Shown: positions 8,190 to 38,463, counted from the first letter of the stretch. The stretch: 64,000 bases of DNA from Bacteroides sp. (GCA_036351255.1 JAZBOS010000109.1:64039-128038), one strand, 5' to 3'. Notes: generated from the sequence alone by a model not told the origin. Made by a program: numbers and translations.

Positions 8190-8261
<72 letters not shown>

Positions 8262-11000: not shown

Positions 11001-11064
11001 GTGATCGATCTCATCAAGTTTACTTAAGGGTATTCATTAACTTAAAGCTTAACGGAATCTGAAA

Positions 11065-11760: not shown

Positions 11761-11798
11761 ACATAGGTGGCACATCACCTTAAAGATACTGACACTTT

Positions 11799-12320
11799 AT
11801 GAAAAGAGAAGACAAATATCAGATTATCGAATCGTTGACCGAGAAGTTAAAAGGTGGCGATATAGTGTATCTGACTGACACTTCTGGCCTGGATGTAGAA
11901 ACCATCAATAAATTGAGGAGGCTTTGTTTCCGTCGTAATGTGGGGCTGCAGGTGGTAAAGAACACCTTGCTCCGCAAAGCCATGGAAGCCAGTGAGAAAA
12001 ACTTCGAAGCGTTGTATGACGTGTTGAAGGGGGCTACCTCAATCATGTTTTCAGATACGGGCAACGTTCCTGCCCGCCTGATCAAAGAGTTTCGCAAGAC
12101 CAGTCCGAAGCCGATCCTAAAGGGTGCCTATGTTCAGGAAGCGATCTTTATTGGGGAAGAGCAGCTGGAAACGCTGGTAAACCTCAAGTCGAAAGAAGAA
12201 CTCATTGGCGACCTTATTGGATTGCTGCAATCTCCTGCCCGGAATGTGATCTCTGCCCTTCAATCGGGTGGATCGACCATTGCCGGTGTATTGAAAACGC
12301 TTTCGGAAAAAGAAAGCTAA
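11799..12320 (+). CDS. rplJ: 50S ribosomal protein L10
   Basis: The 173-aa product has the L10 pattern and the conserved position between rplA and rplL. Confidence 0.95.
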
Positions 12321-12372
12321 GCATTTGAATGAAAAAATCACAAAAGTAAAACCAATTAAAACAAAAATAAAA

Positions 12373-12753
12373 ATGGCAGATTTGAAAGCTTTTGCAGAAC
12401 AATTAGTTAATCTTACGGTAAAAGAGGTTAATGAATTGGCACAGATTTTGAAAGAAGAATACGGCATTGAGCCTGCAGCCGCTGCTCCTGTTGCTGTGGC
12501 AGCCGCAGCTGGTGCTGAGGCAGCCGAAGCTGCAGAAGAACAGACCCAGTTTGACGTGATTCTGAAAGCTGCTGGCCCCTCTAAGCTGGCCGTTGTGAAG
12601 CTTGTGAAAGAACTCACCAGCCTCGGATTGAAAGAAGCTAAAGAACTGGTAGACGGAGCACCTAAAGCGATTAAGGAAGGTGTTGCAAAAGATGAAGCAG
12701 AATCATTGAAAAAGCAACTGGAAGAAGCCGGCGCAGAGGTTGAAGTAAAATAA
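12373..12753 (+). CDS. rplL: 50S ribosomal protein L7/L12
   Basis: [34 protein letters not shown], an Ala-rich hinge, and the C-terminal domain [24 protein letters not shown]. The start is set at the ATG at 12373. Confidence 0.95.
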
Positions 12754-12770
12754 GCTCTCGTAAATATCTG

Positions 12771-12820
12771 AAGATTAGACTTCTGCCGAATCCCCGCGAT
12801 CGATGTAGAAGTCTAATCTT
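12771..12820 (+). terminator. 14-bp-stem hairpin after rplL (terminator/attenuator upstream of rpoB)
   Basis: aagattagacttct (12771-12784) pairs perfectly with agaagtctaatctt (12807-12820). The downstream sequence is T-rich. Confidence 0.5.
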
Positions 12821-12881
12821 TATTGCTGTTTATTTGTTTTTCTTCTTTTAGTTTATTTAGTAACTACAAACACCTCAGACC

Positions 12882-15800
12882 TTGGCAGCAAATATCAAAA
12901 CCGTCGAGAGGGTAAATTTTTCCTCAGTAACCACTCATTTTGATTACCCTGACTTTCTTGAAGTCCAGCTGAAGTCCTTCCAGGACTTTTTCCAGCTTGA
13001 GACGACTCCGGAAAATCGCAAGAATGAGGGCCTTTTTAAAGTGTTTAGTGAGAATTTCCCCATTTCCGACGCCCGAAACAATTTTGTACTTGAATTCTTA
13101 GATTATTTTATTGATCCCCCGAAATATTCCATTCAGGAATGTATCGAACGCGGGCTGACATACAGTGTTCCGCTTAAAGCGAAACTTAAGCTGTATTGTA
13201 CAGACCCCGAACACGAAGACTTTGAAACCATAATCCAGGATGTTTACCTTGGGATGATTCCTTACATGACTCCCCGTGGTACTTTTGTGATCAATGGTGC
13301 TGAGCGTGTAGTGGTGTCACAGTTACACCGCTCTCCCGGGGTGTTTTTTGGAACCAGCCTGCATGCCAATGGTACGCAACTTTACAGTGCCAGGATCATT
13401 CCCTTTAAGGGATCCTGGATTGAGTTTGCGACCGATATTAACAATGTAATGTATGCTTACATTGACAGGAAAAAGAAACTGCCTGTCACCACTTTGCTTA
13501 GGGCCATTGGTTATGAAAGTGATAAGGATATCCTTGAGATCTTTGACCTGGCCGATGAAGTAAAGGTAAGCAAGACCGGCCTGAAGAAATATGTTGGGCG
13601 TAAATTAGCCGCCCGGGTATTGCGTTCATGGGTCGAAGACTTTGTTGACGAAGATACCGGAGAGGTGGTTTCCATTGAGCGAAATGAGGTTATCATTGAC
13701 CGTGAAACCGTCCTCGAGAATGAACATATTGACCTAATTGTAGAATCAGGCGCAAAAACCATTATCCTTCACAAAGAGGATTTGAACCTGAGCGATTATG
13801 CCCTGATTTATAACACCCTCCAAAAAGACACTACCAACTCGGAAAAAGATGCGGTGGAATTTATTTACCGTTTGCTCCGTAATGCTGATCCGCCGGATGA
13901 TGAGACCGCGCGTGGCATGATCGAAAAGCTTTTCTTCTCCGATAAGCGTTATGACTTGGGTGATGTTGGCCGTTACAGGATCAACAAGAAGCTCAATCTT
14001 GAAATCCCCATGGATTTAAGGGTACTTACCAAGGAAGATATTATCTCTATTGTGAAGTACCTCATTGAACTGGTTAATGCCAAGGCAGATGTTGATGACA
14101 TTGACCACTTAAGTAACCGTCGTGTAAGGACTGTTGGTGAGCAGCTATATGCCCAGTTTGGTGTAGGTTTGGCCCGTATGGCCCGCACCATTCGCGAGCG
14201 CATGAACGTTCGCGATAACGAAGTATTTGCTCCAACTGATCTGATCAACGCGAAAACCCTTTCATCGGTTATCAATTCTTTCTTTGGGACGAACCAGCTA
14301 AGCCAGTTTATGGATCAGACCAACCCGCTTGCTGAATTAACGCACAAACGCAGGATGTCAGCACTTGGTCCTGGTGGTTTGTCCAGGGAAAGGGCTGGTT
14401 TTGAAGTGCGCGACGTTCACTTTACGCACTATGGCAGACTTTGTACGATTGAAACCCCCGAAGGCCCAAATATTGGTCTGATTTCTTCGCTTTGTGTTTA
14501 CGCAAAGGTCAATGACTTAGGTTTCATTGAGACTCCCTATTTCGAGGTCAAAGAAGGTAAAGTTGACTTCAAGAGCGAGCCGATGTATCTTTCGGCGGAA
14601 GAGGAGGAGACCAAAATCATTAGCCAGGCAAACGTTTCTCTGAAAAAGGATGGGAAATTCGTCGAAGACCTTGTTAAGGTTCGTTTCCAGGCCGATTATC
14701 CCATTGTAGAGCCCGAAAAGATTGACCTGATGGATGTCGGTCCTAACCAGATTGCTTCCATTGCTGCTTCGCTGATCCCCTTCCTTGAGCACGATGATGC
14801 CAACCGTGCCCTGATGGGTAGTAACATGATGCGCCAGGCTGTACCCTTACTTAATCCGGAATCTCCAATTGTAGGTACTGGTCTGGAAAAAAAGGTGGCA
14901 ACTGACTCCCGCGTGCTGATTAATGCAGAAGGAGAAGGTTTGGTGGAATATGTGGATGCTGATGAGATCATTATTCGCTACTCAAGAAATGATGATGAGA
15001 AGTTGGTGAGTTTTGAAGATGATGTTAGAATCTACAAGCTGACCAAGTTTGCCAAGACCAACCAAAGTACCTGCATTAACCTTCGCCCTATTGTACGAAA
15101 GGGACAAAAAGTGACCAAGGGTCAGCTGCTGTGCGAAGGATATGCTACCAAGGATGGGGAACTTGCTTTAGGCCGCAACCTGAAAGTGGCATTCATGCCC
15201 TGGAAAGGCTATAACTTTGAGGATGCTATTGTTATATCCGAAAAAGTTGTAAAGGAAGATATCTTTACTTCTATTCATATTGAGGAGTTCTCCCTCGACG
15301 TTCGTGACACCAAGCGGGGAGTTGAGGAACTTACTAGTGATATTCCAAACGTCAGTGCAGAAGCCATCAAGGATCTTGATGAAAATGGATTGATCCGTAT
15401 TGGTGCCGAAGTCAACGAAGGCGATATCCTTATCGGGAAAATCACGCCCAAAGGAGAAACAGATCCTACGCCCGAAGAGAAGTTATTGCGGGCTATCTTT
15501 GGTGACAAGGCAGGCGATGTGAAGGATGCTTCACTGAAAGCACCGCCATCAACGAAAGGAGTTGTTGTTGATAAAAAACTCTTCTCCCGTGTTTTCAAGG
15601 ATCGAAAAGCCAAGACAAAGGAAAAGATAATCCTTGAGAAACTGGATGATGAGTTCAATGCCGAAGTTACCGAGCTTAGGGCAAAACTGGTTGATAAACT
15701 TATTGTGCTGGTAAGCGGGAAAACTTCCCAAGGCGTCATGAACAGCCTCAAGGAAGTAGTGGTTGCCAAGGGTACTAAGTTTACACAAAAGATCCTGCAC

Positions 15801-16694
15801 AACCTTGATTATGCAAGCATTAACCCCAATAACTGGACAACCGATCGCGAGAGGAACTTGCTCATTAAGGAATTGCTTCACAACTATTCCATTAAATTCA
15901 AGGATATCCTGGGCGCATATAACCGGAAGAAATTTACCAGTACTGTTGGAGATGAACTTCCAGCAGGGATTGTTCAGCTTGCCAAGATCTATCTGGCGAA
16001 GAAGCGTAAGTTGAAAGTGGGTGACAAGATGGCCGGTCGACACGGAAACAAGGGTATTGTTGCCCGAATTGTCCGTGAAGAAGACATGCCATTCCTGGAA
16101 GACGGAACCCCGGTCGATATTGTTTTGAACCCCTTGGGTGTGCCTTCGCGTATGAACCTGGGCCAGATTTATGAGACCGTGCTGGGTTGGGCAGGTGAAA
16201 AACTGAATATGAAGTTCTCCAGCCCCATTTTCGACGGCGCCACCATTGATGAGATTAACGAGTATATGCGTAAGGCAGGATTACCTGAAAACGGGAAAGT
16301 GTACCTGTATGATGGTGGTACCGGTGAACGATTTGACCAGCCTGCAACAGTAGGTATCATTTATATGTTGAAGCTTGGTCATATGGTTGACGACAAAATG
16401 CATGCCCGTTCTATCGGTCCTTATTCGCTGATCACACAACAACCCCTGGGCGGTAAAGCTCAGTTTGGGGGTCAGCGTTTTGGTGAGATGGAAGTCTGGG
16501 CCCTTGAGGCATTTGGTGCTGCCAATATCCTTCAGGAGATTCTGACCGTGAAATCCGATGATGTAATTGGCCGGGCTAAGGCTTATGAAGCCATAGTAAA
16601 AGGCGAAAATATGCCAACTCCTGGTGTGCCTGAATCATTCAATGTCTTGGTTCACGAACTCAGGGGACTTGGCCTCAATATCCGGTTTGATTAA
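12882..16694 (+). CDS. rpoB: DNA-directed RNA polymerase subunit beta
   Basis: The 1270-aa product is full-length RpoB with an apparent TTG start at 12882. Confidence 0.98.
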
Positions 16695-16701
16695 ACCCAC
16701 G

Positions 16702-16736
16702 ATTCTGCCTGCAGCAAATCTATCTGCAGGCAGAAT
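16702..16736 (+). promoter_or_regulatory. 13-bp perfect hairpin in the rpoB-rpoC spacer
   Basis: attctgcctgcag / ctgcaggcagaat with a 9-nt loop. There is no clear T-run, so it is probably an attenuator or processing structure. Confidence 0.5.
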
Positions 16737-16819
16737 ATTCCATTAGCACGTTGTTTTGGTTGCTAATTGTTGCTAACGACAAAATTGTATATTCAACTTC
16801 TTTAACAATATCAACCTAT

Positions 16820-19800
16820 ATGGCTTTCAGAAAAGAAACCAACGTAAAAAGCAATTTCTCGAAGATCACCATTAGCCTGGCTTCACCTGAGTCGGTTTTG
16901 GAAAGGTCTCACGGGGAAGTGCTGAAGCCGGAAACCATTAACTACCGAACATATAAGCCTGAACGTGACGGGTTATTCTGTGAGAGAATCTTTGGTCCGG
17001 TTAAAGACTGGGAATGTCATTGCGGAAAATACAAACGCATTCGTTATAAGGGAATCGTTTGTGACCGATGCGGTGTTGAAGTTACTGAGAAAAAAGTGCG
17101 CCGTGAAAGAATGGGACACATTAAACTGGTTGTTCCCGTGGCACACATTTGGTTCTTCCGCTCACTTCCCAATAAGATCGGCTACCTGCTTGGATTACCT
17201 TCTAAAAAACTCGACCAGATTATTTATTACGAAAGGTATGTGGTCGTTAATCCCGGTATTAAGGCTGATGAGCTTAGTTTCCTTGATTTTCTTACCGAAG
17301 AGGAATATTTTAATATCCTCGAATCACTTCCGCGTGAGAACCAAATGCTTGAAGACGATGACCCAAACAAGTTTGTTGCCAAGATGGGTGCAGAAGCCCT
17401 CAAGGACATCCTTACCCGTCTGGATTTGGATCAGCTTTCTTACGATCTTCGTCACAAGGCAAACACGGAAACCTCACAGCAGCGTAAGGCTGATGCCCTG
17501 AAGCGACTTCAGGTGGTTGAAGCTTTCCGCGAAGCCCAAAAAACCATTGAAAACAAACCGGAATGGATGATTGTGGACGTTGTTCCCGTTATCCCTCCGG
17601 AACTTCGACCCCTGGTTCCTCTGGATGGCGGTCGTTTTGCCACCAGCGACCTTAACGACCTGTATCGTAGGGTGATCATCCGTAATAATCGTCTTAAACG
17701 CCTGATCGAGATCAAGGCTCCCGACGTGATCCTGCGCAACGAGAAACGTATGCTTCAGGAAGCTGTCGACTCATTGTTTGACAACTCAAGGAAAACCAAT
17801 GCTGTCAAGACGGAGTCAAATCGTCCGCTTAAGTCGCTCAGCGATAGCCTTAAAGGCAAGCAGGGGCGATTCCGCCAAAACCTTTTGGGTAAGCGTGTTG
17901 ACTATTCTGCACGTTCCGTTATCGTGGTTGGCCCTGAACTGAAACTGCACGAATGCGGCCTTCCCAAAGAAATGGCATCTGAACTCTTTAAGCCTTTCAT
18001 CATCCGTAAGATGCTGGAAAGGGGCATTGTAAAGACCGTAAAATCTGCCAAGAAAATTGTTGACCGCAAGGATCCGGTTGTATGGGATATCCTGGAAAAT
18101 GTCTTAAAAGGACACCCGGTATTACTTAACCGTGCACCCACCCTCCACCGCTTGGGGATTCAGGCTTTCCAGCCCAAATTGATTGAAGGTAAGGCTATTC
18201 AGCTGCATCCCCTGGTTTGTACCGCTTTCAACGCTGACTTCGACGGTGACCAGATGGCTGTTCATGTGCCGTTAGGCAACGCGGCCATCCTCGAAGCCCA
18301 AATGCTGATGCTTGCTTCTCACAACATTTTGAATCCGGCTAATGGTGCCCCCATTGCGGTGCCTTCACAGGATATGGTACTTGGTCTTTATTACATGACC
18401 AAGGCGCGCAAGAGCATTGCTGAGCATCCTGTTAAAGGGGAAGGCCTTGTTTTCTATGGACCCGAAGAGGTGATTATCGCCTACAATGAAGGCGCTGCTG
18501 ATTTGCACGCCATTATTAAGGTTCGTGTTCCCGTCCTTGAAGAAGGTCAACTGGTTGAGCGCCTGGTGGAAACCACCGTGGGCCGTGTTCTCTTCAACCA
18601 AGTGATCCCTGAGGAATATGGTTTTATTAACCAACTGCTTACCAAAAAAGCACTCCGTGATATCATCGGGTCAATTATGAAGGTTACAGGAATTTCGCGT
18701 ACTTCTCAATTCCTTGATGATATTAAGGACCTCGGCTTCAATATGGCCTTCAGGGGTGGTCTTTCATTTAACCTTGGGGATATTCTTGTTCCTGGAGAAA
18801 AACAGATCCTTATCGATCAGGCCAATGAGCAGGTAGAAGAGGTTCGTGCTAATTACAGCATGGGCTTTATTACCAACAACGAACGATACAACCAGATCAT
18901 CGACATCTGGACTCATACAAATGCCAAGCTTACCAAGGTTTTGATCGAGAAGACCACTGCCGATAACCAGGGTTTTAATCCTGTTTATATGATGCTTGAC
19001 TCCGGTGCAAGGGGTTCCAAGGAACAGATTCGTCAGCTTTCAGGGATGAGGGGTCTTATGGCCAAACCTCAGAAATCAGGTGCAAAGGGCGGAGAGATCA
19101 TTGAAAACCCCATTCTTTCCAACTTTAAGGAAGGGCTGTCCGTTCTTGAGTACTTTATCTCGACCCACGGTGCCCGTAAAGGTCTTGCTGATACTGCTCT
19201 TAAAACTGCTGATGCTGGTTACCTAACCCGTAGGCTTGTGGATGTTTCCCAGGACGTTATTGTGACCGAACCTGACTGTGGAACCCTCCGTGGGTTAACG
19301 GCTACCGCCCTGAAAAACAATGAAGAAACCGTTGAGCCTCTTTACGACCGTATTCTTGGACGTACAACCCTGCACGATATCTATCATCCCACAACGGGTG
19401 AATTAATCGTAAATGCAGGTGAAGAACTCACCGAAGAAATTGCCCAGGTTATTGAAGACTCACCAATTGAAGCCGTCGAAATCCGTTCCGTGCTCACTTG
19501 TGAGTCAAAACTCGGTGTTTGCGCTAAATGTTATGGCCGTAACCTGGCAACAGGACGTATGGTACAAAAAGGCGAAGCTATCGGTGTAATTGCTGCACAA
19601 TCCATTGGTGAACCCGGTACACAGCTAACCCTGCGTACCTTCCACGTGGGTGGTGTTGCAGGTGGCCTGGCCACCGCCTCCAAGATCAATGCCAAATATG
19701 GCGGGTTATTGGAGATCGATGAACTTCGCAGCGTACCCTTTACCAATATCGAAGGCAAATCCTATCATGTGGTCATTGGACGTTCAGCTGAAATGCGGAT

Positions 19801-21507: not shown

Positions 21508-21629
21508 GCCCAAATTGGCAGAACCCAAAACTCCTTGTTAAATTTTCCTTGTTTTTTCTGCTATCATTTCTGATCTGGCCAAGGACTTGGTTTGGAAACG
21601 AGTCTTTCCATACTCATACCACGCTCGTG

Positions 21630-21682
21630 GTTTATACGGTTTAAACCGTATAAACTCCGTTTTAACTCCGTATTAACCATGA
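21630..21682. repeat. Repeat element B: 26-bp perfect palindrome plus 11-bp tandem units
   Basis: gtttatacggttt|aaaccgtataaac occupies 21630-21655, followed by ataaactccgt / tttaactccgt / attaaccatga in 11-bp register. It matches element C at 39 of 41 positions across cggtttaaaccg..attaac. Confidence 0.8.
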
Positions 21683-21981: not shown

Positions 21982-22422
21982 TTAAAAGAACCGGAATACT
22001 CTCAGCAAGTCCTCTTCATTCTCTCCAAACCAAAGCAACAGGTATTGCCCGCGAATCTTGGCGTCGTCCTTGATTTGCTGCCAGGTTACCTCTTTCGACT
22101 GGTCTCCGTTTTCCACATTAAAAGTGACTTGCTCCCTGACATAGGACTCCAGCTCAGCGAGCGCTTTTTCGGGATCTTTTCCTTCTTTTATCTTGAATAC
22201 AAAAGCATTTAGGTAGTCGTCATTGTAAACCAGCAAGTCATCTACCCCGATCAGGGTCAGGGCCATTCTCTCCAGTTTGCTGTTGGGTTGCCAATACTCT
22301 CCGGCATAACCATTGGCCATCATTCTTTCCTTCAGGGAATTCAAATTTCCGGGCTCCTGCTGGCAGGATATAATGCTTAGCAATACAATACTGAAAATGA
22401 TAAATCCTCTTAGGCTTTTCAT
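21982..22422 (-). CDS. Hypothetical lipoprotein
   Basis: The start is set at MKSLRGFIIFSIVLLSIISC (lipobox-like LSIISC). I recognise no family. It lies 96 nt downstream of dnaE2 on the same strand. Confidence 0.6.
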   Translation of the reverse strand: MKSLRGFIIFSIVLLSIISCQQEPGNLNSLKERMMANGYAGEYWQPNSKLERMALTLIGVDDLLVYNDDYLNAFVFKIKEGKDPEKALAELESYVREQVTFNVENGDQSKEVTWQQIKDDAKIRGQYLLLWFGENEEDLLRVFRFF

Positions 22423-22518
22423 AATAACTTGTTTTTGCGAAGATAGTATAAAAGAAGATTTTTGGGAACAGGTTTTTGGACTTCCCATATTTTCTTCCTT
22501 CTAACCCTTGATTTTTCT

Positions 22519-25452
22519 TTATCCTCTTGGGTCTGGTTTCATCGGCAGGCGGGCCATTTTCTCTACGGTCAGCGAGGGATAGCCAAACTCTTCGGTGATG
22601 GTGCCCAACAGCAGATAAATGCCGTTTCCCCGGAAGGGCCAGGCTTTTGAGGTCGCAGGGAAATGCACCGTATCGAAGAAGTTGCCCTGCACATCGAGGA
22701 AGCAGCCGAAATGCATCATCTCACGTTTTACGGTGCGCACGTATTTGATGGTGACCAGCCAGCCGACCATACGCACCTTGCGCCCCAGCTGCTGCAGCAT
22801 CTCGTTGGCCATTACCTCGCCACGGAAGTCACTCTTCACCAGGTCGAAGGGGCTCATCGATACGGTGAAACCCAGCAGCTCCATCTCATCGTAGGCATCC
22901 TGAACGGGGTCGGTCTCGGGTGCAGGGAAATGAAAGGCCTTTTCCTGTGCCGTGAAGAGCATCGGACCCGGGGCAGGCTTTTTGCCAGCCAGCAGGTGGG
23001 CTTTCCACATCAGCTGCGCCTTGGCAATGCCCGTGAAACGGAAGGCGTTGACGCGAATCAGCAGGATAAGCTGTTCGAGTCCGCAGCCTGTGCGGCGGGC
23101 AAAGTCCTCCAGCCCCAGGTAGGGCCCGCCTGCATCGCGCTCTGCGCTGATGAGTTGGGCCACCTTATATTCGAGGTTCTGGATGTGTACAAAGCCGATG
23201 TAAATGTCCTTCCCGTAAATAGTGGTGGTGTAGTTGCTGTGGTTCACGCAGGGCAGCTCGATGCTGGCCCCGTTGCGTTTAGCCTCGTTGAAATAGACGG
23301 GGCTCTGGTAGAATCCGCCAAAGTTGTTGATGACGGCGGTCATGAATTCCCTTGGGTAATAGGCTTTCAGGTAAAGGCTTTGATAGCTCTCCACCGCAAA
23401 AGAAGCTGAGTGTGCCTTCGAAAAGGAATAGCCTGCAAAGGACTCGATCTGACGCCACACCTCTTGTGTGAGGCTTTCGGGATAACCCCTGGCACGGCAG
23501 TTCTCGAAAAAACGATCGACGATGCGCTGCATCTCCTTCTTCGAGCGATACTTTCCGCTCATGGCCCGCCGCAACACATCGGCATCCGCCAGGTCAAGTC
23601 CGGCAAAGTGGTGGCAGACCTTGATCACATCCTCCTGGTAAACCATCACCCCGTAGGTTTCCTTCAACTGCTGTTCCATTACGGGATGGAGATACTGAAA
23701 GCCATTGGGGTTATGGAAGCGCTGGATATACTCGCGCATCATCCCTGAGCGGGCCACCCCCGGACGGATGATGGAGCTGGCGGCCACCAGGCTGATGTAG
23801 TTGTCGCAACGCAGCTTCGTGAGCAGGCCACGCATGGCAGGGCTCTCTACATAGAAGCAGCCCGTGGTCTCGCCCGATCGCAACAGGGCCTTGACCTTCT
23901 CATCCTTTTTAAACTGTTCCACCTGGTGCACGTCCACGCTGACGCCGTGGTTCTTTCTAACGATTTGGGCGCATTCGTTGATGTGGCCGATGCCGCGCTG
24001 GCTCAGGATATCGATTTTCTCAAAGGCGAGATCTTCGGCCGTATACATATCCCACTGTACGGTGGGCAAGCCTTTTGGGGGCATATCGAGGGCTGAGTAA
24101 CAGCAGATGGGCTCCTCGGAGATAAGCACCCCCCCAGCGTGTATGCTGCGCATATTGGGAAAGTCGGCCAGCTGTTCGGCCATTTCAAAGATGCGGGCCC
24201 CCACAGCGTCAGGCTCGCTTCGCGCCTCGTGGTTCGACACCAGCACATCGATTTCGGCCTTGGGTAACCCGAGCACCTTGCCTAGTTCACGAATCATGCT
24301 GCGGTCGCGAAAGGTGGTGATGGTGCCCAACAGGGCGGTATGCTCGTGACCATAGCGCTTGAAGATGTAGTCGAGCACCTGGTCGCGTTCCTTCCACGAG
24401 TAGTCAATGTCGAAATCGGGAGGCGAGGAGCGCTTGGGGTTTATGAAACGCTCAAAATAGAGATCGAGTTCTATGGGATCCACATCGGTGATGCGCAGGC
24501 AATAAGCCACAATGCTGTTGGCTCCGCTGCCCCGTCCCACGTGGTAAAAGCCGCGTGACATCGAATAGCGGATGATGTCCCAGGTGATGAGGAAGTAGGA
24601 CGAGAAGCCCAGCTTGTCGATGACCTCCAGTTCGTGCTGTACCCGCCTCAGGGCTTCCTTATTTTTCTTCCCGTAGCGGTATTCCATCCCGTCCATCGCC
24701 AGCTTGGTGAGCAGGGCACGGTCATCGGTTGGGTGGCCGGTGAAGGTCTTCTTGTTTTTGGGTGCCCGGAAGTCAAAGTCCATATGACACTGCCCGAGGA
24801 GCTTCTCGGCATTGATGATGAGTTGCGGGAAGTTTTCAAAGCGCTGGCAAAGTGCCTCAGGGGAGGGGAAGGTCTCTTCCGGATGGCCTATTTGCCGTGG
24901 CTGCAGCAGGCTGATCACCAGGTTGTGATCGATGGCGCGCAGGTGGCGGTGCAACTCATATTCTTTTTCTGAAAGGAATGTAACCGCCTGCAGGGCCACC
25001 AGCTTTTCGGTGTGATGCCGCAGGGAAGAGGTGGAGAGGCGGGTGAGGTCATGCGACCGCAGGCCGATGTACTCGTGTTTGCCCGCAGGCAATGGGGTCT
25101 TTTCCCCGAAAGGGTAAATGACAAAGGTATGTTCGCACACCGGGTAGCGTGAAGGAAAAGCCGAGTGGCTGATGTTGTGGTTGCTGAGGAAGGCGTTGAT
25201 GCGTCGGAAACCTTCGGAATCGCGTGCCAGCACCACATAAAGCAAGTGATCACCCTTGCGGAACTCCATCCCGGCCACTGGCGCAATGCCCTGTTCTTTG
25301 CAGAGCTTCACAAAGTCGGGCATGGCCGTAGCATTGTTGATGTCGGTCAGGGCCATCCGCTCAACACCCATCTTGCCGGCCAGCTCTACCAGTGTTTCCG
25401 GGCTTATGGTGCCATAGCGGAGGCTGTAATATGTGTGGCAGTTGAGGTACAT
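22519..25452 (-). CDS. dnaE2: Error-prone DNA polymerase III alpha-like subunit (DnaE2-type)
   Basis: It has the PHP domain start MYLNCHTYYSLRYGTISPE, a polymerase core and an OB region, and is about 977 aa. It has no tau/beta-binding C-terminal extension and is paired with a Y-family polymerase. The start is set at the ATG at 25452. Confidence 0.88.
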   Translation of the reverse strand: MYLNCHTYYSLRYGTISPETLVELAGKMGVERMALTDINNATAMPDFVKLCKEQGIAPVAGMEFRKGDHLLYVVLARDSEGFRRINAFLSNHNISHSAFPSRYPVCEHTFVIYPFGEKTPLPAGKHEYIGLRSHDLTRLSTSSLRHHTEKLVALQAVTFLSEKEYELHRHLRAIDHNLVISLLQPRQIGHPEETFPSPEALCQRFENFPQLIINAEKLLGQCHMDFDFRAPKNKKTFTGHPTDDRALLTKLAMDGMEYRYGKKNKEALRRVQHELEVIDKLGFSSYFLITWDIIRYSMSRGFYHVGRGSGANSIVAYCLRITDVDPIELDLYFERFINPKRSSPPDFDIDYSWKERDQVLDYIFKRYGHEHTALLGTITTFRDRSMIRELGKVLGLPKAEIDVLVSNHEARSEPDAVGARIFEMAEQLADFPNMRSIHAGGVLISEEPICCYSALDMPPKGLPTVQWDMYTAEDLAFEKIDILSQRGIGHINECAQIVRKNHGVSVDVHQVEQFKKDEKVKALLRSGETTGCFYVESPAMRGLLTKLRCDNYISLVAASSIIRPGVARSGMMREYIQRFHNPNGFQYLHPVMEQQLKETYGVMVYQEDVIKVCHHFAGLDLADADVLRRAMSGKYRSKKEMQRIVDRFFENCRARGYPESLTQEVWRQIESFAGYSFSKAHSASFAVESYQSLYLKAYYPREFMTAVINNFGGFYQSPVYFNEAKRNGASIELPCVNHSNYTTTIYGKDIYIGFVHIQNLEYKVAQLISAERDAGGPYLGLEDFARRTGCGLEQLILLIRVNAFRFTGIAKAQLMWKAHLLAGKKPAPGPMLFTAQEKAFHFPAPETDPVQDAYDEMELLGFTVSMSPFDLVKSDFRGEVMANEMLQQLGRKVRMVGWLVTIKYVRTVKREMMHFGCFLDVQGNFFDTVHFPATSKAWPFRGNGIYLLLGTITEEFGYPSLTVEKMARLPMKPDPRG

Positions 25453-25465
25453 AAACAGATTATGC

Positions 25466-25661
25466 GGATTTTTACGGATTACGCTGATTAAAGTAAAGTG
25501 CCAAGGGCATGGGGCATGGAGCAAAGGGCACCGAGTAAAAGGCGTGGGGCATGGAGTCAAGGGCAAGGGGTAGAGGATATGGTGGATGGTGGCGTACAAT
25601 CAACCTTGAATCTTGAACTTTAAACTTTGAACCTTGAACCCCTAACTCCAAACGTCCTACC
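25466..25661. repeat. Array of 28 in-phase degenerate heptanucleotides filling the dinB-dnaE2 spacer
   Basis: The plus strand reads ..ccaaggg catgggg catggag caaaggg caccgag taaaagg cgtgggg catggag tcaaggg caagggg tagagga tatggtg gatggtg gcgtaca atcaacc ttgaatc ttgaact ttaaact ttgaacc ttgaacc cctaact ccaaacg tcctacc. No indel breaks the phase. Confidence 0.9.
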
Positions 25662-26819
25662 TTATCCAGGAGTCATCGCCACCCCGCGGTGTACAGCTCC
25701 TTCGCCGTGTTTGCGGCGCATGCGGTCGATGGCCTGGTAGAGGCTGATCAGTTCGGGGGTTTCCTCGAACATGTTGAGCTGCTGTACGCCGCGTACCAGG
25801 CGGGTGAACTGCACCCCCACCAGGCGTATGAGCATACGGCGGGTGTAGAGCCTGCGGAACAGCTCCTTGCACACGGGGATGAGGATGTGGTCGAAGGAGG
25901 TGTAGGGCACGGTTTGTTGCAGGGTATGAGTATCGAAGTTGGCGTAGCGTATCTTTACCGTTACGCAGCCGGTGAGCTGCTGTTTCTTGCGTAGCCTGAA
26001 GGCCTGCTGCTCACACATACGCACCAGCAAGTCGTTGATATAGGCAATGTCGATGGTATCCGTTTCAAAGGTGGTCTCGGTGCCGATAGACTTGCGTTCA
26101 CTCCACGACTGTACTGGACTGTTATCGATGCCATTGGCGCGCTGCCAGATTAGCTTGCCGTTCTTGCCCATCATGTTTTCCATCACTTCGGCTGGGATAC
26201 GGCTCAGGGTGCCTATGGTGGCAATGCCCATGGTGCGCAGGGTGTAATAGGTCTTCGAACCGATCATCGGAATCTTGCGGATCGACAGGGGGTCAAGAAA
26301 AGAATGCACCAGGGGCTGCTCCACCTGGATCTGCCCGTTGGGTTTGGCTTCGCCCGTGGCGATCTTCGACACGGTCTTGTTCATCGAAAGGCCCATGGAG
26401 ATTGGCAGGCCCGTTTCTTTGATGATGGTATGCCGCAGTTCTGAAGCCCATTTGTAGCAACCGAAGAAGCGGTCCATGCCCGTGATATCCAGGTAATGCT
26501 CGTCGATGGAGGCCTTCTCGAATACAGGTGCCCGCTCGGCGATGATCTGGGTAATGATGTTCGAGTATTTGCTGTAGCTCTCCAGGTCGCCGCGGATGAA
26601 GATGGCATCGTTGCAAAGGTTGCGGGCCAGCTTCATGGGCATAGCCGAATGCACCCCGAATTGCCGTGCCTCATAGCTGCAGCTTGCCACCACCCCCCGG
26701 TCGCCCATGCCGCCAATGATCACGGGCTTGCCTGTGAGGCTGCTGTTGTGCAGGCGCTCTACCGACACAAAGAAAGTGTCCTGATCGAGATGGGCTATGG
26801 TGCGCGATGTGGTATCCAT
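25662..26819 (-). CDS. dinB: Y-family DNA polymerase (DinB / Pol IV-like, catalytic residues intact)
   Basis: It has HLDQDTFFVSVE (D-x-D-x-F-F) and SIDEHYLDITG (the catalytic D-E pair), which are typical of active DinB and not of ImuB. It is 385 aa. Confidence 0.88.
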   Translation of the reverse strand: MDTTSRTIAHLDQDTFFVSVERLHNSSLTGKPVIIGGMGDRGVVASCSYEARQFGVHSAMPMKLARNLCNDAIFIRGDLESYSKYSNIITQIIAERAPVFEKASIDEHYLDITGMDRFFGCYKWASELRHTIIKETGLPISMGLSMNKTVSKIATGEAKPNGQIQVEQPLVHSFLDPLSIRKIPMIGSKTYYTLRTMGIATIGTLSRIPAEVMENMMGKNGKLIWQRANGIDNSPVQSWSERKSIGTETTFETDTIDIAYINDLLVRMCEQQAFRLRKKQQLTGCVTVKIRYANFDTHTLQQTVPYTSFDHILIPVCKELFRRLYTRRMLIRLVGVQFTRLVRGVQQLNMFEETPELISLYQAIDRMRRKHGEGAVHRGVAMTPG

Positions 26820-26890
26820 AAAAAAATTGTACTAAAATGCTTGCAGTTACAAAAAATGTTTTAACTTTGATTAGTAAATGATCAAAATAC

Positions 26891-26907
26891 TGATTATAAT
26901 ATAATCA
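26891..26907. promoter_or_regulatory. Perfect 17-bp palindrome TGATTATA-A-TATAATCA in the divergent dinB / lexA-like promoter region (candidate operator)
   Basis: I checked the palindrome base by base. It lies centrally in the 241-bp divergent intergenic region. Confidence 0.3.
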
Positions 26908-27060
26908 AATAGCAGGCAAAAAGAAAAGATCTGGCGCTTATTTTTTCAGTGCAGGACTTAAGTCCGGGGGTGATAAACGGTCGTACAGGAACTTTCAGAT
27001 GTGATTGCAACCAAGGATCATTCAGCGGGCGTTGGCCCGGCAATATAAAAACACACAACC

Positions 27061-27906
27061 ATGAGCTTTTTTGGATCAAACATTAAATTATTGCGCAAGC
27101 GCCGGGGCCGTACCCAGGACGATGTGGCCTTTCTGCTTGAGATGAAGCGCCCCACCCTGAGCGGCTATGAGAACGGGGTAGCCCAGCCCGGCCTCGAGGC
27201 CCTGGTGGCCTTCTCGAAGTATTATAATGTGTCCATTGACACCCTGGTAAAAGTGGATCTCTCGCAGTTGAGCGAGAGCCAGCTCTCTCAGCTCGAGCGT
27301 GGTTACGATATCTTTGTTACGGGCAGCAAGCTGCGTGTACTGGCTACCACCATCGATAATCACAACGAAGAGAACATCGAAATGGTGTCGGAGAAGGCCA
27401 AGGCGGGTTATCGCACCGGCTTTGCCGATCCCGAGTTCATCAAGGTGCTGCCCACCTTCCAGATGCCTTTCCTGTCGAAGCAAAAAAAGTATCGCTCCTT
27501 CCAGATCTCGGGCGACAGCATGCTGCCCATCCCCGAAGGGTCGTGGGTCACCTGTGAGTTCGTGCAGAACTGGAACCTTATCCGCGACCGCCACGCCTAT
27601 GTCATCCATACCCTCAACGATGGGGTGGTGTTTAAGGTGGTGGAAAACCTCATTAAAACCGAAGGAAAGTTGCGGCTGCATTCACTGAACCCCATCTATG
27701 AACCCTACGAGGTTCACGTGAACGACATCCGCGAGGTGTGGAAGTTCGTCAACTTCATCAGCAGCCAGATCCCTGAGGCTAACTCGCCCGTTGATCAGCT
27801 TTCCAACCAGTTCTCTCAGTTGAAAAAGGAAGTGGAATCCATCAAGAGCAAGCTGAAAAAACAAAACCCCTCCCAGGGAAAAACGGGCAAGCTTTTTGAC
27901 GATTAA
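27061..27906 (+). CDS. XRE/CI-type HTH + S24 peptidase repressor (LexA-like, non-canonical)
   Basis: The N-terminal HTH is IKLLRKRRGRTQDDVAFLLEMKRPTLSGYENG. There is a possible Ala-Gly cleavage site in EKAKAGYR, the S24 Ser motif ISGDSMLP, and a downstream Lys (VVFKVV). A C-terminal tail of about 50 aa looks coiled-coil-like. Confidence 0.85.
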   Translation: MSFFGSNIKLLRKRRGRTQDDVAFLLEMKRPTLSGYENGVAQPGLEALVAFSKYYNVSIDTLVKVDLSQLSESQLSQLERGYDIFVTGSKLRVLATTIDNHNEENIEMVSEKAKAGYRTGFADPEFIKVLPTFQMPFLSKQKKYRSFQISGDSMLPIPEGSWVTCEFVQNWNLIRDRHAYVIHTLNDGVVFKVVENLIKTEGKLRLHSLNPIYEPYEVHVNDIREVWKFVNFISSQIPEANSPVDQLSNQFSQLKKEVESIKSKLKKQNPSQGKTGKLFDD

Positions 27907-27912
27907 AAGCAG

Positions 27913-27962
27913 GCCGGCCCTCCGCAACTTTCTGTGAAAGCTTCGGAAGGCCGGCTATTTTT
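27913..27962 (+). terminator. Hairpin terminator between the lexA-like gene and the convergent PNP gene
   Basis: gccggccctccg / cggaaggccggc forms a 12-bp stem with one mismatch and is followed by tattttta. Confidence 0.5.
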
Positions 27963-27984
27963 AAGTTCGTTCAGAAAGGCTGTT

Positions 27985-28800
27985 TTACAGGCTTTTTATC
28001 ATTTCGGTGAAGATCAGGGTCATGTTCTGCTCGGCGATCTGTGCAACGTTTTGCACTTCTTCGTGGCTGGTAGGTTTATCGGTATCGGCAGGCTTGGCCA
28101 GGTTGGTGATGATTGAAATGCCAAAGCACTCCATCCCGGCGTGCCGCGCAACGATGACCTCGGGAACAGTTGACATCCCTGTAGAGTCTGCCCCAAGGAG
28201 CCTGAACATGTTGTATTCGGCGGGGGTCTCCAGGGTAGGGCCGGGGCTGCCGATGTAAACGCCCGACTGGAACTTGATCTTGTGATCGCGGGCGATCTTC
28301 TTTGCCCGGGCAATCAGTGCGGGATTATAGGTCTGGCTCATCTCCGGGAAACGGGTACCCAGTTCATCGATGTTCTTCCCGCGAAGGGGATTTTCGGGGA
28401 ACAGATTGATGTGGTCGCGGATGATCATCAGGTCGCCCACCTCAAAGGCCGGGTTTAGCCCTCCGGCAGCATTGGAAAGAAACAGGGTGTTGACGCCCAT
28501 CAGCTTCATTACCCTTACCGGGAAGGTGACCTGTTGCATGGGATATCCTTCATAATAATGAAAGCGCCCCTGCATAGCCATTACGTTCTTGCCTCCCAGG
28601 ACGCCGAAGATCAGCTTGCCATCGTGGCCTTCCACTGTCGAAACAGGAAAGTTTGGAACCTCACTGTAATCGAAGGTGTGCTTCACATCGATGGACTTTA
28701 CCAGGCCACCAAGACCGGAACCCAGAATAATACCTATCTCAGGGCTGAAATTCGTTTGGTCCTTTAAAAATTGCGCTGTCGATTTAATCTTTTCAAACAT
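27985..28800 (-). CDS. Purine nucleoside phosphorylase (trimeric PNP / PunA type)
   Basis: The 271-aa product contains GIILGSGLGGL..MQGRFHYYEGY..LSNAAGGLN..GMSTVPEV. Confidence 0.9.
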   Translation of the reverse strand: MFEKIKSTAQFLKDQTNFSPEIGIILGSGLGGLVKSIDVKHTFDYSEVPNFPVSTVEGHDGKLIFGVLGGKNVMAMQGRFHYYEGYPMQQVTFPVRVMKLMGVNTLFLSNAAGGLNPAFEVGDLMIIRDHINLFPENPLRGKNIDELGTRFPEMSQTYNPALIARAKKIARDHKIKFQSGVYIGSPGPTLETPAEYNMFRLLGADSTGMSTVPEVIVARHAGMECFGISIITNLAKPADTDKPTSHEEVQNVAQIAEQNMTLIFTEMIKSL

Positions 28801-38062: not shown

Positions 38063-38391
38063 GGCTGGGTAATTGGGATTTTTGGTTCAAGCTTAGGAGA
38101 AATTCTTAAATCATTATTTGGTAATCCTTGTTCATGATTCAAAAAAACAAAGCCTGAGGACTCCTGATCTCAGAATAAGGAACAAGCCCGCCTGCCTTTG
38201 CGGGCAGGAAATGAAAATTTCAGAAGTACCTGATCCTTGAAATTTGAACATTGAACCAAAAACCCTGAACTTTCTGATCTCAGATCAATGATTAGCGATT
38301 TATGGTTTATGATTTTTGTTAGGAGGGAGGATTTGGATGGATTTTCATAATTAATGAATGGATTTTAAAATATTTGGAGAAAGGGTTTTTT
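38063..38391 (+). repeat. Approximately 45 consecutive degenerate heptanucleotides filling the trmD-rplS spacer
   Basis: Starting at the nucleotide after the trmD stop, it reads ggctggg taattgg gattttt ggttcaa gcttagg .. cattatt tggtaat ccttgtt catgatt .. tgaaatt tgaacat tgaacca aaaaccc tgaactt tctgatc tcagatc aatgatt agcgatt tatggtt tatgatt tttgtta ggaggga ggatttg gatggat. All units are in a single phase. Confidence 0.75.
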
Positions 38392-38409
38392 TAAATGAAA
38401 ATATTTCTC

Positions 38410-38417
38410 TAAATTTG
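38410..38417 (+). promoter_or_regulatory. Candidate -7 promoter box TAAATTTG for rplS
   Basis: It matches TAnnTTTG, lies 47 nt upstream of the ATG at 38464, and is followed by GCACTCCTTTT as at rpsU. Confidence 0.5.
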
Positions 38418-38463
38418 CACTCCTTTTCAGAATACAAGAGAAATTATAAAATATACCGTACCG

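What the first reader, a model, noticed from the sequence alone, without database searches (positions are those of the whole stretch)
25466..25661. The entire dinB-dnaE2 spacer consists of 28 in-phase degenerate heptanucleotides
The 196 nt from the base next to the dinB stop codon (25662-25664) to about 14 nt before the dnaE2 ATG parse into 28 consecutive 7-nt units with no phase-breaking indel.
- One block of about 13 units resembles CATGGGG (catgggg catggag caaaggg cgtgggg catggag tcaaggg caagggg ...).
- One block of about 8 units resembles TTGAACC (ttgaatc ttgaact ttaaact ttgaacc ttgaacc cctaact ccaaacg).
- On the transcribed (minus) strand the array starts right after the stop as ggtagga cgtttgg agttagg ggttcaa ggttcaa agtttaa agttcaa.
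Period 7 is not a multiple of three, so this is not eroded coding sequence. It does create a spurious 49-aa Pro/Cys/Thr-rich N-terminal extension on the dnaE2 ORF. The closest analogue I know of is the heptanucleotide STRR repeats of heterocystous cyanobacteria. I am not aware of an equivalent described in Bacteroidota. Because the array sits inside an apparent operon, it could act at the RNA level (protein-binding array, processing or spacing element), or it could simply be a slippage-generated spacer.
Basis: seen in the sequence. Interest (0 to 1): 0.7.

Follow-up and report, generated by a model that had tools for sequence, protein, structure and literature searches.

The report
Heptanucleotide repeat spacer between dinB and dnaE2
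The untranslated gap between two SOS DNA-polymerase genes is mostly two decayed runs of 7-base tandem repeats, belonging to a little-studied class of repeats common between genes in Bacteroidota and also found in viral contigs; their function is still unknown.

Summary
The period-7 signal is real. Lag-7 identity is 0.52 against 0.25 in dinucleotide shuffles (z = 8.5), the strongest in the 64 kb window. Only about 24 of the 28 claimed units are periodic (25494-25661). The 41 nt next to the dnaE2 ATG are not periodic.

On the transcribed strand there are two blocks. A G/T-rich block (RGTTYAA, 9 units) follows the dinB stop codon. A C-rich, G-poor block (CYCYWTG, 14 units) follows it.

This is not a one-off. 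Across 1.3-1.9 Mb from 159 related Bacteroidota loci, periods 7 and 14 dominate all tandem repeats. Lag 7 is the outstanding periodicity of intergenic DNA. The dinB-dnaE2 junction is a hotspot: 14 of 31 spacers are periodic, with at least 15 unrelated unit types, and spacer lengths run from 0 to over 700 nt.

Arrays after stop codons are G>C (33:5). Arrays before start codons are G<C (3:18). GTTCAAR arrays also occur in at least 120 viral contigs.

I found no Rfam match, no significant RNA fold and no G·U bias. Heptamer arrays are already published for cyanobacteria, Xanthomonas, Beggiatoaceae and five Bacteroidetes.

Verdict: a new member of a known but functionally unexplained class. It most likely arose by whole-unit slippage and was shaped by its position relative to the flanking genes.

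The parts
25662..26819 (-). Upstream gene: Y-family (DinB-type) DNA polymerase, 385 aa, stop TAA at 25662-25664
   Evidence: ORF list. Pfam IMS E=3e-44 and IMS_C E=5e-26.
25599..25661 (-). 5' block: 9 heptads starting at the base after the dinB stop codon. Consensus RGTTYAA, G/T-rich and C-poor (G:C = 20:5). Includes the perfect duplicate GGTTCAA GGTTCAA.
   Evidence: Heptad parse and per-position counts. Lag-7 identity 0.68, z = 6.4. TRF period 7, 5.6 copies.
25592..25598 (-). Junction unit TGTACGC between the two blocks. It matches neither block.
   Evidence: 1-2 of 7 positions shared with neighbouring units.
25494..25591 (-). 3' block: 14 heptads. Consensus C-Y-C-Y-W-T-G (CACCATC, CCCCTTG, CTCCATG, CCCCATG ...), C-rich and G-poor (C:G = 44:12). 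Contains a 5-unit (35-nt) internal duplication.
   Evidence: Lag-7 z = 4.5 and lag-21 z = 4.7. Lag-35 identity 0.67.
25453..25493 (-). Non-periodic leader directly upstream of the dnaE2 ATG. Carries AATCCG at 25475-25480 and 25465-25470 and AATCTG at 25456-25461 (plus-strand coordinates, read on the minus strand). The AATCCG motif is conserved in the closest relatives even though their arrays differ.
   Evidence: no periodicity. Spacer listings and alignment of L001-L005 and L082.
22519..25452 (-). Downstream gene: dnaE2-like error-prone Pol III alpha, 977 aa, starting at the ATG at 25450-25452. The TTG at 25599 gives a spurious 49-codon extension through the 3' block.
   Evidence: Pfam. tblastn matches start at residue 1 in related loci. 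Translation of the extension.
40741..40803 (+). Second intercistronic heptad spacer of the same kind in the window. After a TAA stop: GGTCTCA GGTTTCA GGTTTTCA GGTTTCA GGTTCAT, then the A/C-rich ACCACAAACCTCAATGCAAT before the next ATG.
   Evidence: Lag-7 z = 4.6.
38063..38350 (+). Third heptad-rich intergenic region. GGTTCAA-like units follow the stop codon, then a GC hairpin, then CCTTGAA ATTTGAA CATTGAA, then GATNNNN-type heptads. All lie upstream of a TAAATTTG box, which matches the Bacteroidetes -7 promoter consensus TAnnTTTG recalled from the literature (not checked against a paper here).
   Evidence: (z = 4.9).

Best explanation
The dinB-dnaE2 gap is a pair of decayed heptanucleotide simple-sequence-repeat arrays.

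Origin (mostly shown): the arrays were built and are remodelled by slipped-strand or whole-unit duplication and deletion. Phase is preserved because every gain or loss is a multiple of 7 and later changes are point substitutions.

Class (shown): it belongs to intergenic heptamer arrays that are abundant in many Bacteroidota and also occur in viral contigs. The junction between these two SOS polymerase genes is a recurrent site for such arrays.

What it is not (shown): it is not needed for the operon, because orthologous gaps range from 0 to over 700 nt. It is not a conserved RNA structure.

Effect (inferred): composition follows a position rule seen across loci, G-rich and C-poor just after a stop codon and C-rich and G-poor ahead of a start codon. 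The array is therefore filtered by what the flanking gene ends tolerate. The most likely effect is that of a tunable untranslated linker. It uncouples dnaE2 translation from dinB and supplies a long G-poor leader suited to Shine-Dalgarno-independent initiation in this phylum.
For: Periodicity: z = 8.5, the strongest in the window.

Growth by whole units: a perfect adjacent duplicate, and lag-35 identity of 0.67 against 0.54 at lag 7 in the 3' block. The 5' block is homologous to that of L002-L004 but differs in unit number and variants, with 8 versus 7-17 GTTYRRR units.

Class membership:
- Period 7 gives 61 arrays and period 14 gives 48, against 1-24 for any other period, in 1.3 Mb.
- Among 579 intergenic regions, 67 have lag-7 z > 3. 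Other lags apart from the harmonic lag 14 (45) give 2-24, and matched coding controls give 4.
- 3 of 30 intergenic regions in the window itself are periodic.

Hotspot: 14 of 31 dinB-dnaE2 spacers have z7 > 3, against 53 of 548 other intergenic regions (Fisher p = 1e-6). By my reading of the listed spacers they carry at least 15 unrelated unit types.

Dispensability and turnover: spacers of 0-20 nt occur in many relatives, including L084 at 90% protein identity. L035 and L108 are 95% identical in DNA but carry unrelated arrays.

Position rule, excluding this spacer and duplicate loci and counting each unit family once: after a stop G>C 33:5 (p = 4e-6); before a start 3:18 (p = 0.0015). Non-array 40-mers give 261:287 and 279:515. 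The window spacer obeys the rule, with G:C 20:5 then 12:44.

Published precedent: heptamers are the most abundant long SSR class and were attributed to polymerase slippage (Mrazek 2007, as cited in PMC4679880 and PMC4692102). A GGGGATT array lies between pecE and pecF in Nostoc (PMC4692102). In Flexibacter litoralis, TAACTGA is 'forward' upstream of start codons and 'reverse' after a stop codon (PMC4679880).
Against: The functional half of the statement is inference. No expression data were available.

Window versus L001: the spacer differs at only 5 of 209 positions with no indel, while 4-fold degenerate sites of both flanking genes differ by 21%. That is too conserved for a freely slipping or neutral array (binomial p about 3e-15 at the synonymous rate, 1e-3 at the whole-cassette rate). 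It could mean specific sequence constraint. However, two equally conserved ~180-nt patches inside dnaE2 suggest recombination or mosaic assembly instead.

The same unit family (GTTCAAR) recurs in unrelated genomes and in viral contigs with GC from 0.20 to 0.67. An RGTT core is three-fold enriched. Slippage alone does not predict either; both point to a sequence-specific reader or generator.

The position rule is weaker in viral contigs: 46:29 and 29:45, p = 0.06-0.08.

Gene calls were crude longest-ORF calls.
Confidence: 0.6

Rival explanations
1. Pure mutational by-product. Heptamer slippage fills any unconstrained non-coding DNA, and the array has no effect on expression. The compositional polarity only reflects removal of harmful variants.
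For: Arrays occur in co-directional, convergent and divergent gaps. Turnover is rapid and many orthologues have no spacer. There is no RNA family or fold signal and no G·U bias.
Against: Near-identity between the window and L001. Arrays are present in compact phage genomes between structural genes. The same GTTCAAR unit recurs across very different GC backgrounds. The G>C rule after stop codons also holds between convergent genes, where no start codon is involved (14:2).
Confidence: 0.25
2. A binding array for a nucleic-acid-binding protein with a 7-nt footprint. On RNA or ssDNA this could be a cold-shock-domain protein or ribosomal protein S1. On duplex DNA it could be a ribbon-helix-helix protein that polymerises along contiguous heptads. 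One protomer would sit on each unit and read the conserved GTT (or C-N-C) positions.
For: Conservation is position-specific inside units: GTT in 7-8 of 8 units, and C at positions 1 and 3 in 12 of 13. The RGTT core is enriched across lineages, in 52 of 121 arrays against 16.7 expected. GTTCAAR arrays are at least 10 times more frequent than a scrambled unit in viral contigs. MacGregor 2015 proposed S1, Csp or CsrA as readers of TAACTGA arrays and notes that CspB binds one protein per heptamer (PMC4679880).
Against: Unit sequences differ widely between and within genomes, with at least 15 types at this junction alone. No shared protein accompanies the arrays in viral loci. No binding data exist.
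Confidence: 0.15
3. An intercistronic RNA attenuator. In one version the G/U-rich block pairs with the C-rich block to form a long imperfect hairpin acting in stabilisation, processing or termination, as REP/BIME elements do. In the other version the ~100-nt C-rich, G-poor block is a Rho loading site that limits read-through into dnaE2.
For: Many sister arrays are clear inverted pairs, for example L065:422-502, L062:1260-1548, L070:1657-1743 and L048:9097-9167. In the window, 0.48 of the 0.57 pairing probability of the G block goes to the C block. The minimum-free-energy fold contains a ~17-bp stem pairing GGAGUUAGGGG..CAAGG with CCUUGCCCUUGACUCC. The 3' block has C:G = 44:12.
Against: Fold energy is no better than shuffles, z = -0.77. 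Pairing is no better than with a shuffled C block, 0.41 +/- 0.11. Mismatches in the inverted pairs show no G·U excess on the sense strand, so the complementarity looks DNA-derived. There is no terminator-like site. Rho dependence was not testable.
Confidence: 0.12
4. Coding sequence: a real N-terminal extension of DnaE2 from the TTG at 25599, or a small upstream ORF inside the array.
For: The frame is open for 49 codons.
Against: Homologues start at the ATG. The spacer is absent, of different length, or made of unrelated units in relatives. An open frame is expected in C-rich, stop-poor sequence.
Confidence: 0.02

Closest known systems
Cyanobacterial STRR heptanucleotide repeats (for example GGGGA(T/C)T = STRR1 in Nostoc/Anabaena; three heptanucleotides in Calothrix PCC 7601)
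   Same: Tandem 7-nt units in intergenic DNA, including inside operons: a 26-copy GGGGATT array lies between pecE and pecF (PMC4692102). Function unknown. Length and sequence vary between relatives.
   Different: Different unit sequences, with at least 8 of 21 mismatches to three units of STRR1-3. Different phylum. Here two compositionally opposite, strongly degenerate blocks sit side by side. STRR unit sequences other than GGGGA(T/C)T are from my memory of Mazel et al. 1990.
TAACTGA heptamer direct repeats of marine Beggiatoaceae, cyanobacteria and five Bacteroidetes (MacGregor 2015, PMC4679880)
   Same: Intergenic heptamer arrays described in Bacteroidetes. The A/C-rich 'forward' orientation lies just upstream of start codons, with a reverse set right after a stop codon. 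'Other heptamer direct repeats' occur in the same intergenic regions. Orthologous regions in close relatives lack them. A true TAACTGA array (CTGATAA x 11) is present in related locus L007:1547-1625.
   Different: The window spacer contains no TAACTGA units. It is far more degenerate, and it lies between a stop and a start codon with two blocks.
Long simple sequence repeats (LSSR) of prokaryotes, heptanucleotide class (Mrazek et al. 2007, as summarised in PMC4679880 and PMC4692102), and Xanthomonas GGGAATC repeats (PMC4692102)
   Same: Heptamers are the over-represented long SSR class. They are intergenic, occur in direct and inverted arrangements, vary extensively between close relatives, and slippage was proposed as their origin.
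   Different: Those surveys score near-perfect repeats. This array is decayed, at roughly 50% lag-7 identity. No G-quadruplex potential is apparent in the window spacer by reading its sequence.
REP/BIME extragenic palindromes of Proteobacteria
   Same: Works-like comparison only. Both are genome-specific dispersed extragenic elements, often inverted pairs that can form hairpins between genes of an operon. The same unit is reused at several loci of one genome (L062, L065, L067, L070).
   Different: REPs are fixed ~35-nt palindromes without internal 7-nt periodicity and are linked to RAYT transposases. No such gene was looked for or seen here. The window spacer itself is not a significant palindrome.
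Contiguous 7-bp heptad operators bound by the omega (ribbon-helix-helix) repressor of plasmid pSM19035
   Same: Unspaced heptads in direct and inverted orientation in intergenic DNA, read one dimer per heptad. This comes from my own knowledge and was not checked in a paper here.
   Different: Those arrays have 7-10 well-conserved WATCACW units at promoters. Here the units are diverse, no cognate protein is known, and the location is inside a transcription unit.

Membership tests
Heptanucleotide long simple-sequence repeats (generic class) | Head-to-tail repetition with a 7-nt unit beyond chance | tested here: met
   Lag-7 z = 8.5, with harmonics at lags 14, 21 and 28. TRF period-7 and period-21 rows.
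Heptanucleotide long simple-sequence repeats (generic class) | Non-coding (intergenic) location | tested here: met
   Lies between the dinB stop codon and the homology-supported dnaE2 ATG.
Heptanucleotide long simple-sequence repeats (generic class) | Unit-number or sequence variation among relatives (slippage dynamics) | tested here: met
   L002-L004 carry the homologous GTTYRRR block with 7-17 units. Spacer lengths are 168-299 nt in that group and 0 to over 700 nt overall. There is no variation against the closest relative L001.
Cyanobacterial STRR1/2/3 | Unit sequence CCCCART / TTKGTCA / CAACAGT (or complements) | tested here: not met
   The best three-unit match in the spacer has 8 of 21 mismatches for each.
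Cyanobacterial STRR1/2/3 | Occurrence in heterocystous cyanobacteria | tested here: not met
   The closest genomes are Bacteroidales MAGs.
TAACTGA repeat family (MacGregor 2015) | Direct repeats of TAACTGA | tested here: not met
   8 of 21 mismatches in the spacer and at best 5 of 21 anywhere in the window. The family is present in relative L007.
TAACTGA repeat family (MacGregor 2015) | A/C-rich orientation immediately upstream of start codons | tested here: met
   This is an analogous rule, not membership. Arrays before start codons are G<C 18:3. The window's 3' block has C:G = 44:12.
Structured cis-regulatory RNA / known sRNA (Rfam) | Match to a curated covariance model | tested here: not met
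   No hit at E <= 1 in 24900-26200 on either strand.
Structured cis-regulatory RNA / known sRNA (Rfam) | Folding energy better than composition-matched shuffles, or compensatory changes | tested here: not met
   z = -0.77 (sense) and -0.12 (antisense). Block pairing is no better than with a shuffled partner. No G·U excess. The closest relative has too few substitutions for a covariation test.
REP/BIME-type extragenic palindromes | Imperfect palindrome able to form a stable hairpin | tested here: inconclusive
   Clear in sister arrays (L065, L062, L070, L048). The window spacer has only composition-level complementarity.
REP/BIME-type extragenic palindromes | Many dispersed copies per genome plus a RAYT transposase | not testable with these tools
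   Only 64 kb of the genome is available. Three GGTTCAA-like sites lie in the window. No transposase search was done.
Intrinsic terminator / sigma-70-type promoter | GC-rich hairpin plus T-run, or -35/-10 hexamers, inside the spacer | tested here: not met
   None found within 25453-25661. No TAnnTTTG box in the spacer. Bacteroidetes-type promoters are only crudely covered.
Bacteroidetes SOS operator | GGA-N5-TCC or CTAA-N5-TTAG dyad (PMC8565304) | tested here: not met
   Absent from the spacer and from 26820-27060.

The most novel reading that the evidence does not exclude
RGTT/AACY-type heptad arrays, of which the GTTCAAR family is the most widespread, could be a cis-acting code shared by Bacteroidota and the viral contigs that carry these arrays, with an orientation rule relative to stop and start codons. 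A protein with a 7-nt footprint, such as a cold-shock-domain or S1-type OB fold on RNA or an RHH-type protein on DNA, would read them. That would set intercistronic expression ratios in a phylum that lacks Shine-Dalgarno pairing. The dinB-dnaE2 spacer would then be a graded control on mutagenic polymerase output.
Probability: 0.15. Interest if true: 0.8.

Novelty: new member of a known kind. Interest (0 to 1): 0.5.

Why it matters
Heptanucleotide arrays have been known for decades (as I recall, since 1990 in cyanobacteria) and were recognised in 2007 as the commonest long SSR in bacteria, yet they have no established function.

This case shows three things:
- They are pervasive in uncultured Bacteroidales and Bacteroidota and also occur in viral contigs.
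- They repeatedly and independently occupy the junction between two SOS-regulated error-prone polymerase genes.
- They obey a simple, testable orientation rule relative to gene ends.

If the arrays modulate the DnaE2:DinB ratio, they would act as a rapidly evolving control on inducible mutagenesis. If they do not, they are still a practical annotation hazard. Here one creates a false 49-aa extension of dnaE2. In rumen relatives the arrays run into the 3' end of dinB and supply its stop codon.

Tried and rejected
- Rfam search at permissive E-value: nothing.
- Single-sequence RNA folding of both strands: not better than shuffles.
- Partition-function test of G-block to C-block pairing against a shuffled C block: not significant.
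- Strand-of-selection test (G·U versus A·C mismatches in inverted heptad pairs): no bias.
- Sigma-70-type promoter and intrinsic terminator scan, and a TAnnTTTG search: nothing in the spacer.
- Published Bacteroidetes SOS operators: absent.
- Membership in STRR1-3, TAACTGA or GGGAATC: rejected on sequence.
- Exact-protein lookup for further assemblies, to look for unit-number polymorphism: the protein is not on record. The metagenome scan added only a copy identical to L001.
- Looking for a protein shared by the viral contigs that carry GTTCAAR arrays: only ordinary, diverse phage structural genes, each in 10 or fewer of 120 loci.
- Purifying selection from the window-L001 comparison: suggestive, but confounded by other near-identical patches inside dnaE2.
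- Literature search for GTTCAAGGTTCAA-type arrays: only unrelated primer hits.
- Coding reading of the 21-nt super-period: rejected.
- Replication of the polarity rule in viral contigs: same direction but not significant.

Full report

The finding lies between a Y-family polymerase gene and a dnaE2-like gene, both on the minus strand. The first (25662-26819) matches Pfam IMS and IMS_C. The second (22519-25452) matches DNA_pol3_alpha, finger, HHH_6 and PHP. A divergent HTH_3 + Peptidase_S24 gene at 27061-27906 matches the non-canonical LexA type described for Bacteroidetes. In that phylum a DinB plus Pol III alpha operon is the core of the SOS regulon (PMC8565304).

For 25466-25661 the lag-7 identity is 0.519, against 0.254 +/- 0.031 in 2000 dinucleotide-preserving shuffles (z = 8.5). 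Harmonics at lags 14, 21 and 28 give z = 5.3-6.4. It is the top period-7 site of the whole window.

Read unit by unit on the transcribed strand:
- Nine units follow the stop codon directly (25599-25661). Consensus RGTTYAA, with GTT nearly invariant and G:C = 20:5.
- One junction unit follows.
- Fourteen units follow (25494-25591). Consensus C-Y-C-Y-W-T-G, with C:G = 44:12.
- The last 41 nt before the ATG (25453-25493) are not periodic. They carry AATCCG/AATCTG three times at 9-10 nt spacing.

The TTG-initiated 49-codon extension of dnaE2 exists. It is spurious, because homologues begin at the ATG.

**2. What do relatives show?**

A protein-guided scan of GTDB genomes gave 80 loci, and a metagenome scan gave 79 more. 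All are Bacteroidota, at 96% down to about 53% DinB identity.

The orthologous gap is extremely variable. It is 0-20 nt in many lineages, including L084 at 90% identity, and 100-700 nt in others. Of 31 gaps of at least 42 nt in the genome-scan set, 14 have lag-7 z > 3.

The units are unrelated between lineages. Examples:
- GTTTCAG/GTTTGGA with CTGCCGCTACCTC
- AAACCCA
- CAGTTTA with ACTGCTA
- CCATTAG with AATGGCT
- TTCAAAC, GCCAAAG and ACCTTAA
- ATCAATA/ATTAACA

By my reading of the listed spacers there are at least 15 types in all.

L035 and L108 are 95% identical in DNA. Even so, the whole gap and the last ~20 nt of dinB are replaced by unrelated arrays between conserved flanks.

Within the 90% clade the 5' block is recognisably homologous to the window's: GTTTGGA, GTTAGGG, GTTCAAG and so on. 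It differs in unit number and variants.

**3. Is it a local oddity or a genomic habit?**

It is a habit. In 1.3 Mb (the window plus 80 loci), TRF finds 61 period-7 and 48 period-14 arrays, against 1-24 for any other period. The same holds in 1.87 Mb.

A test independent of TRF covered 579 intergenic regions. Lag 7 is significant (z > 3) in 67 of them. Other lags apart from the harmonic lag 14 (45) give 2-24, and length-matched coding controls give 4.

The window itself has three such regions out of 30: the finding, 38063-38463 and 40741-40803. The dinB-dnaE2 junction is enriched about 4.5-fold over other intergenic DNA (14/31 against 53/548, Fisher p = 1e-6). Related genomes are not independent samples, so the diversity of unit types is the safer argument.

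**4. Architecture and polarity.**

Many arrays come as a G/T-rich arm followed by its complement. They often start at a stop codon and end at a start codon, sometimes around a GC hairpin. Examples are L065:422-502, L062:1260-1548, L070:1657-1743 and L048:9097-9167. One genome reuses the same unit at several loci.

I excluded this junction and duplicate loci and counted each unit family once. Arrays within 30 nt after a stop codon are then G>C in 33 of 38 cases (p = 4e-6). Arrays before a start codon are G<C in 18 of 21 (p = 0.0015). The rule holds between convergent genes (14:2) and divergent genes (0:9). Non-array sequence at the same positions shows little or no such bias.

For an inverted pair, 'G arm first' is the same on both strands. 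The rule therefore does not by itself say which strand matters.

An RGTT core is three-fold enriched among arrays.

MacGregor (PMC4679880) reported the same orientation habit for TAACTGA in Flexibacter litoralis. L007 carries an 11-copy TAACTGA array.

**5. Tests for an RNA element.**

- No Rfam family matches.
- Fold energies equal those of shuffles, z = -0.77 and -0.12.
- The G block is predicted to pair mainly with the C block, but no more than with a shuffled C block.
- Mismatches in inverted heptad pairs show no G·U over A·C excess on the sense strand.
- No promoter-like, terminator-like or SOS-operator motif lies in the spacer.

A defined RNA structure is therefore not supported. The complementarity of sister arrays looks DNA-derived.

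**6. Evidence that cuts the other way.**

Between the window and L001 the spacer differs at 5 of 209 positions with no indel. Four-fold degenerate sites of both flanking genes differ by 21%, and other intergenic regions by 12-40%. This argues against a freely slipping, neutral array.

However, two ~180-nt patches inside dnaE2 are equally conserved. Recombination or mosaic assembly is therefore an alternative explanation.

A scrambled unit gives 11. The host contigs range in GC from 0.20 to 0.67. In the contigs I read, the arrays lie in gaps between ORFs, and the commonest neighbouring genes are ordinary phage structural genes. Slippage alone does not predict recurrence of one unit across such backgrounds. 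The polarity rule is only a trend in this set (46:29 and 29:45), and ORF calling there is least reliable.

**7. Most likely mechanism.**

Shown:
- The gap is two decayed heptanucleotide SSR arrays.
- It grew by whole-unit events: a perfect adjacent duplicate, and a 35-nt duplication with lag-35 identity 0.67.
- Homologous arrays in relatives differ by unit gain and loss.
- The class is widespread and the junction is a hotspot.
- The array is dispensable for the operon.

Inferred:
- Phase survives because all length changes are multiples of seven.
- Composition is filtered by position relative to gene ends.
- The net effect is a tunable untranslated linker. It uncouples dnaE2 translation from dinB and offers a long G-poor leader for Shine-Dalgarno-independent initiation.

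I put 0.6 on this package. Most of the uncertainty is in the functional half. The rivals are pure junk (0.25), a 7-nt-footprint protein-binding array (0.15), a hairpin or Rho attenuator (0.12) and coding sequence (0.02).

**8. Comparison with what is known, and novelty.**

Heptamers are the commonest long SSR class in bacteria and have been attributed to polymerase slippage (Mrazek 2007, via PMC4679880 and PMC4692102).

Named families:
- Cyanobacterial STRR, including a GGGGATT array inside the pec operon
- Xanthomonas GGGAATC
- TAACTGA in Beggiatoaceae, cyanobacteria and five Bacteroidetes

The window spacer matches none of these units. It meets every feature of the generic class, so it is a new member of a known kind.

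What appears not to be in the searchable literature:
- the scale of the phenomenon in Bacteroidales MAGs
- the stop/start polarity across many unit types
- the RGTT core
- the GTTCAAR family also present in viral contigs
- the recurrent occupation of the dinB-dnaE2 junction

**9. Caveats.**

- Gene models outside the two polymerase genes are longest-ORF heuristics (about 90% coding).
- Related loci are phylogenetically non-independent.
- Most sequences are MAG or metagenome assemblies.
- No expression or binding data were available.
- STRR2 and STRR3 unit sequences and the omega-heptad analogy are from memory.

Noticed in passing
window 806-930, 21620-21680, 58150-58220: Three copies of a different dispersed element. 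Each has a short perfect palindrome (for example TTAATACGGAGTTTATTCGGTTTAAACCGAATAAACTCCGTATTAA) followed by 11-nt direct repeats (AACTCCGTATT / AACTACGTGTT). TRF reports period 11 at 85-100% matches. The three share architecture and many aligned positions. They could be ends or binding sites of a mobile element or a regulator; identity unknown.
   Followed up: partly
window 26891-26907: Perfect 17-bp palindrome TGATTATAATATAATCA (GATTA-N5-TAATC) between dinB and the divergent HTH_3 + S24 LexA-like gene. The two published Bacteroidetes SOS motifs (GGA-N5-TCC, CTAA-N5-TTAG) are absent there. It may be a diverged operator with the same dyad-N5 geometry. The region is well conserved in L001.
   Followed up: partly
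window 25456-25480 (minus strand): AATCCG, AATCCG and AATCTG at 9-10 nt spacing directly upstream of the dnaE2 ATG. The AATCCG motif is conserved in L001-L005 and L082 although their heptad arrays differ. Possibly part of the dnaE2 translation-initiation region or a binding site.
   Followed up: partly
window 22000-28800: The dinB-dnaE2-lexA-like segment has higher GC (0.52-0.56 against 0.42-0.48 in most of the window outside about 22-40 kb). It also diverges far less from L001 (6-10% against 15-30% in neighbouring genes). Near-identical ~180-nt patches lie at 23520-23700 and 24660-24840. This suggests recent exchange, recombination or mosaic assembly of the cassette.
   Followed up: partly
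L035:11121-11167, L040:2904-2975, L108 (dinB 3' end), L032/L036/L064:11119-11149: In rumen-type relatives the heptad arrays run into the 3' end of dinB. They encode its last residues and supply the stop codon, so the DinB C-terminal tail varies with the array.
   Followed up: partly
L042, L114, L047, L038, L150 and L157 versus L110: L042 and L110 are 98% identical overall. L042 has a 568-nt non-periodic dinB-dnaE2 gap (565-718 nt in the others) where L110 has 29 nt of TGGCTAA-type heptads. This looks like an insertion or deletion of about 540 nt of unknown content.
   Followed up: no
L099, L100, L102, L103 (dinB-dnaE2 gap, 153-212 nt): In these lineages the gap is filled by tandem ~30-nt hairpin units (for example CTAACCGGAGGAGGCGAAGCCTCCGA) instead of heptads. 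They look like REP-type palindromes.
   Followed up: no
viral contigs L160-L279 (for example L180:1095-1237, L169:1302-1472): GTTCAAR/YTTGAAC heptad arrays occur in at least 120 IMG/VR contigs with GC from 0.20 to 0.67, often several per contig. In the contigs read they lie in gaps between ORFs, and ordinary phage structural genes are the commonest neighbours. In 1.03 Mb, 359 of 647 tandem arrays have period 7, 14 or 21.
   Followed up: partly
L007:1547-1625: An 11-copy CTGATAA (= TAACTGA) array in a long intergenic region of a Bacteroidales MAG. It extends the published distribution of that family.
   Followed up: no
L067 (Candidatus Pollutiaquabacter aromativorans, complete genome), 7248-19434: Seven heptad-rich intergenic regions lie within 21 kb. 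Unit families such as GGTAATT/AGTAACT and TCCCTCG recur in several of them, and some regions contain G-run units (GGGGTTTGGGGTTT). This would be a good genome for a whole-genome census.
   Followed up: no
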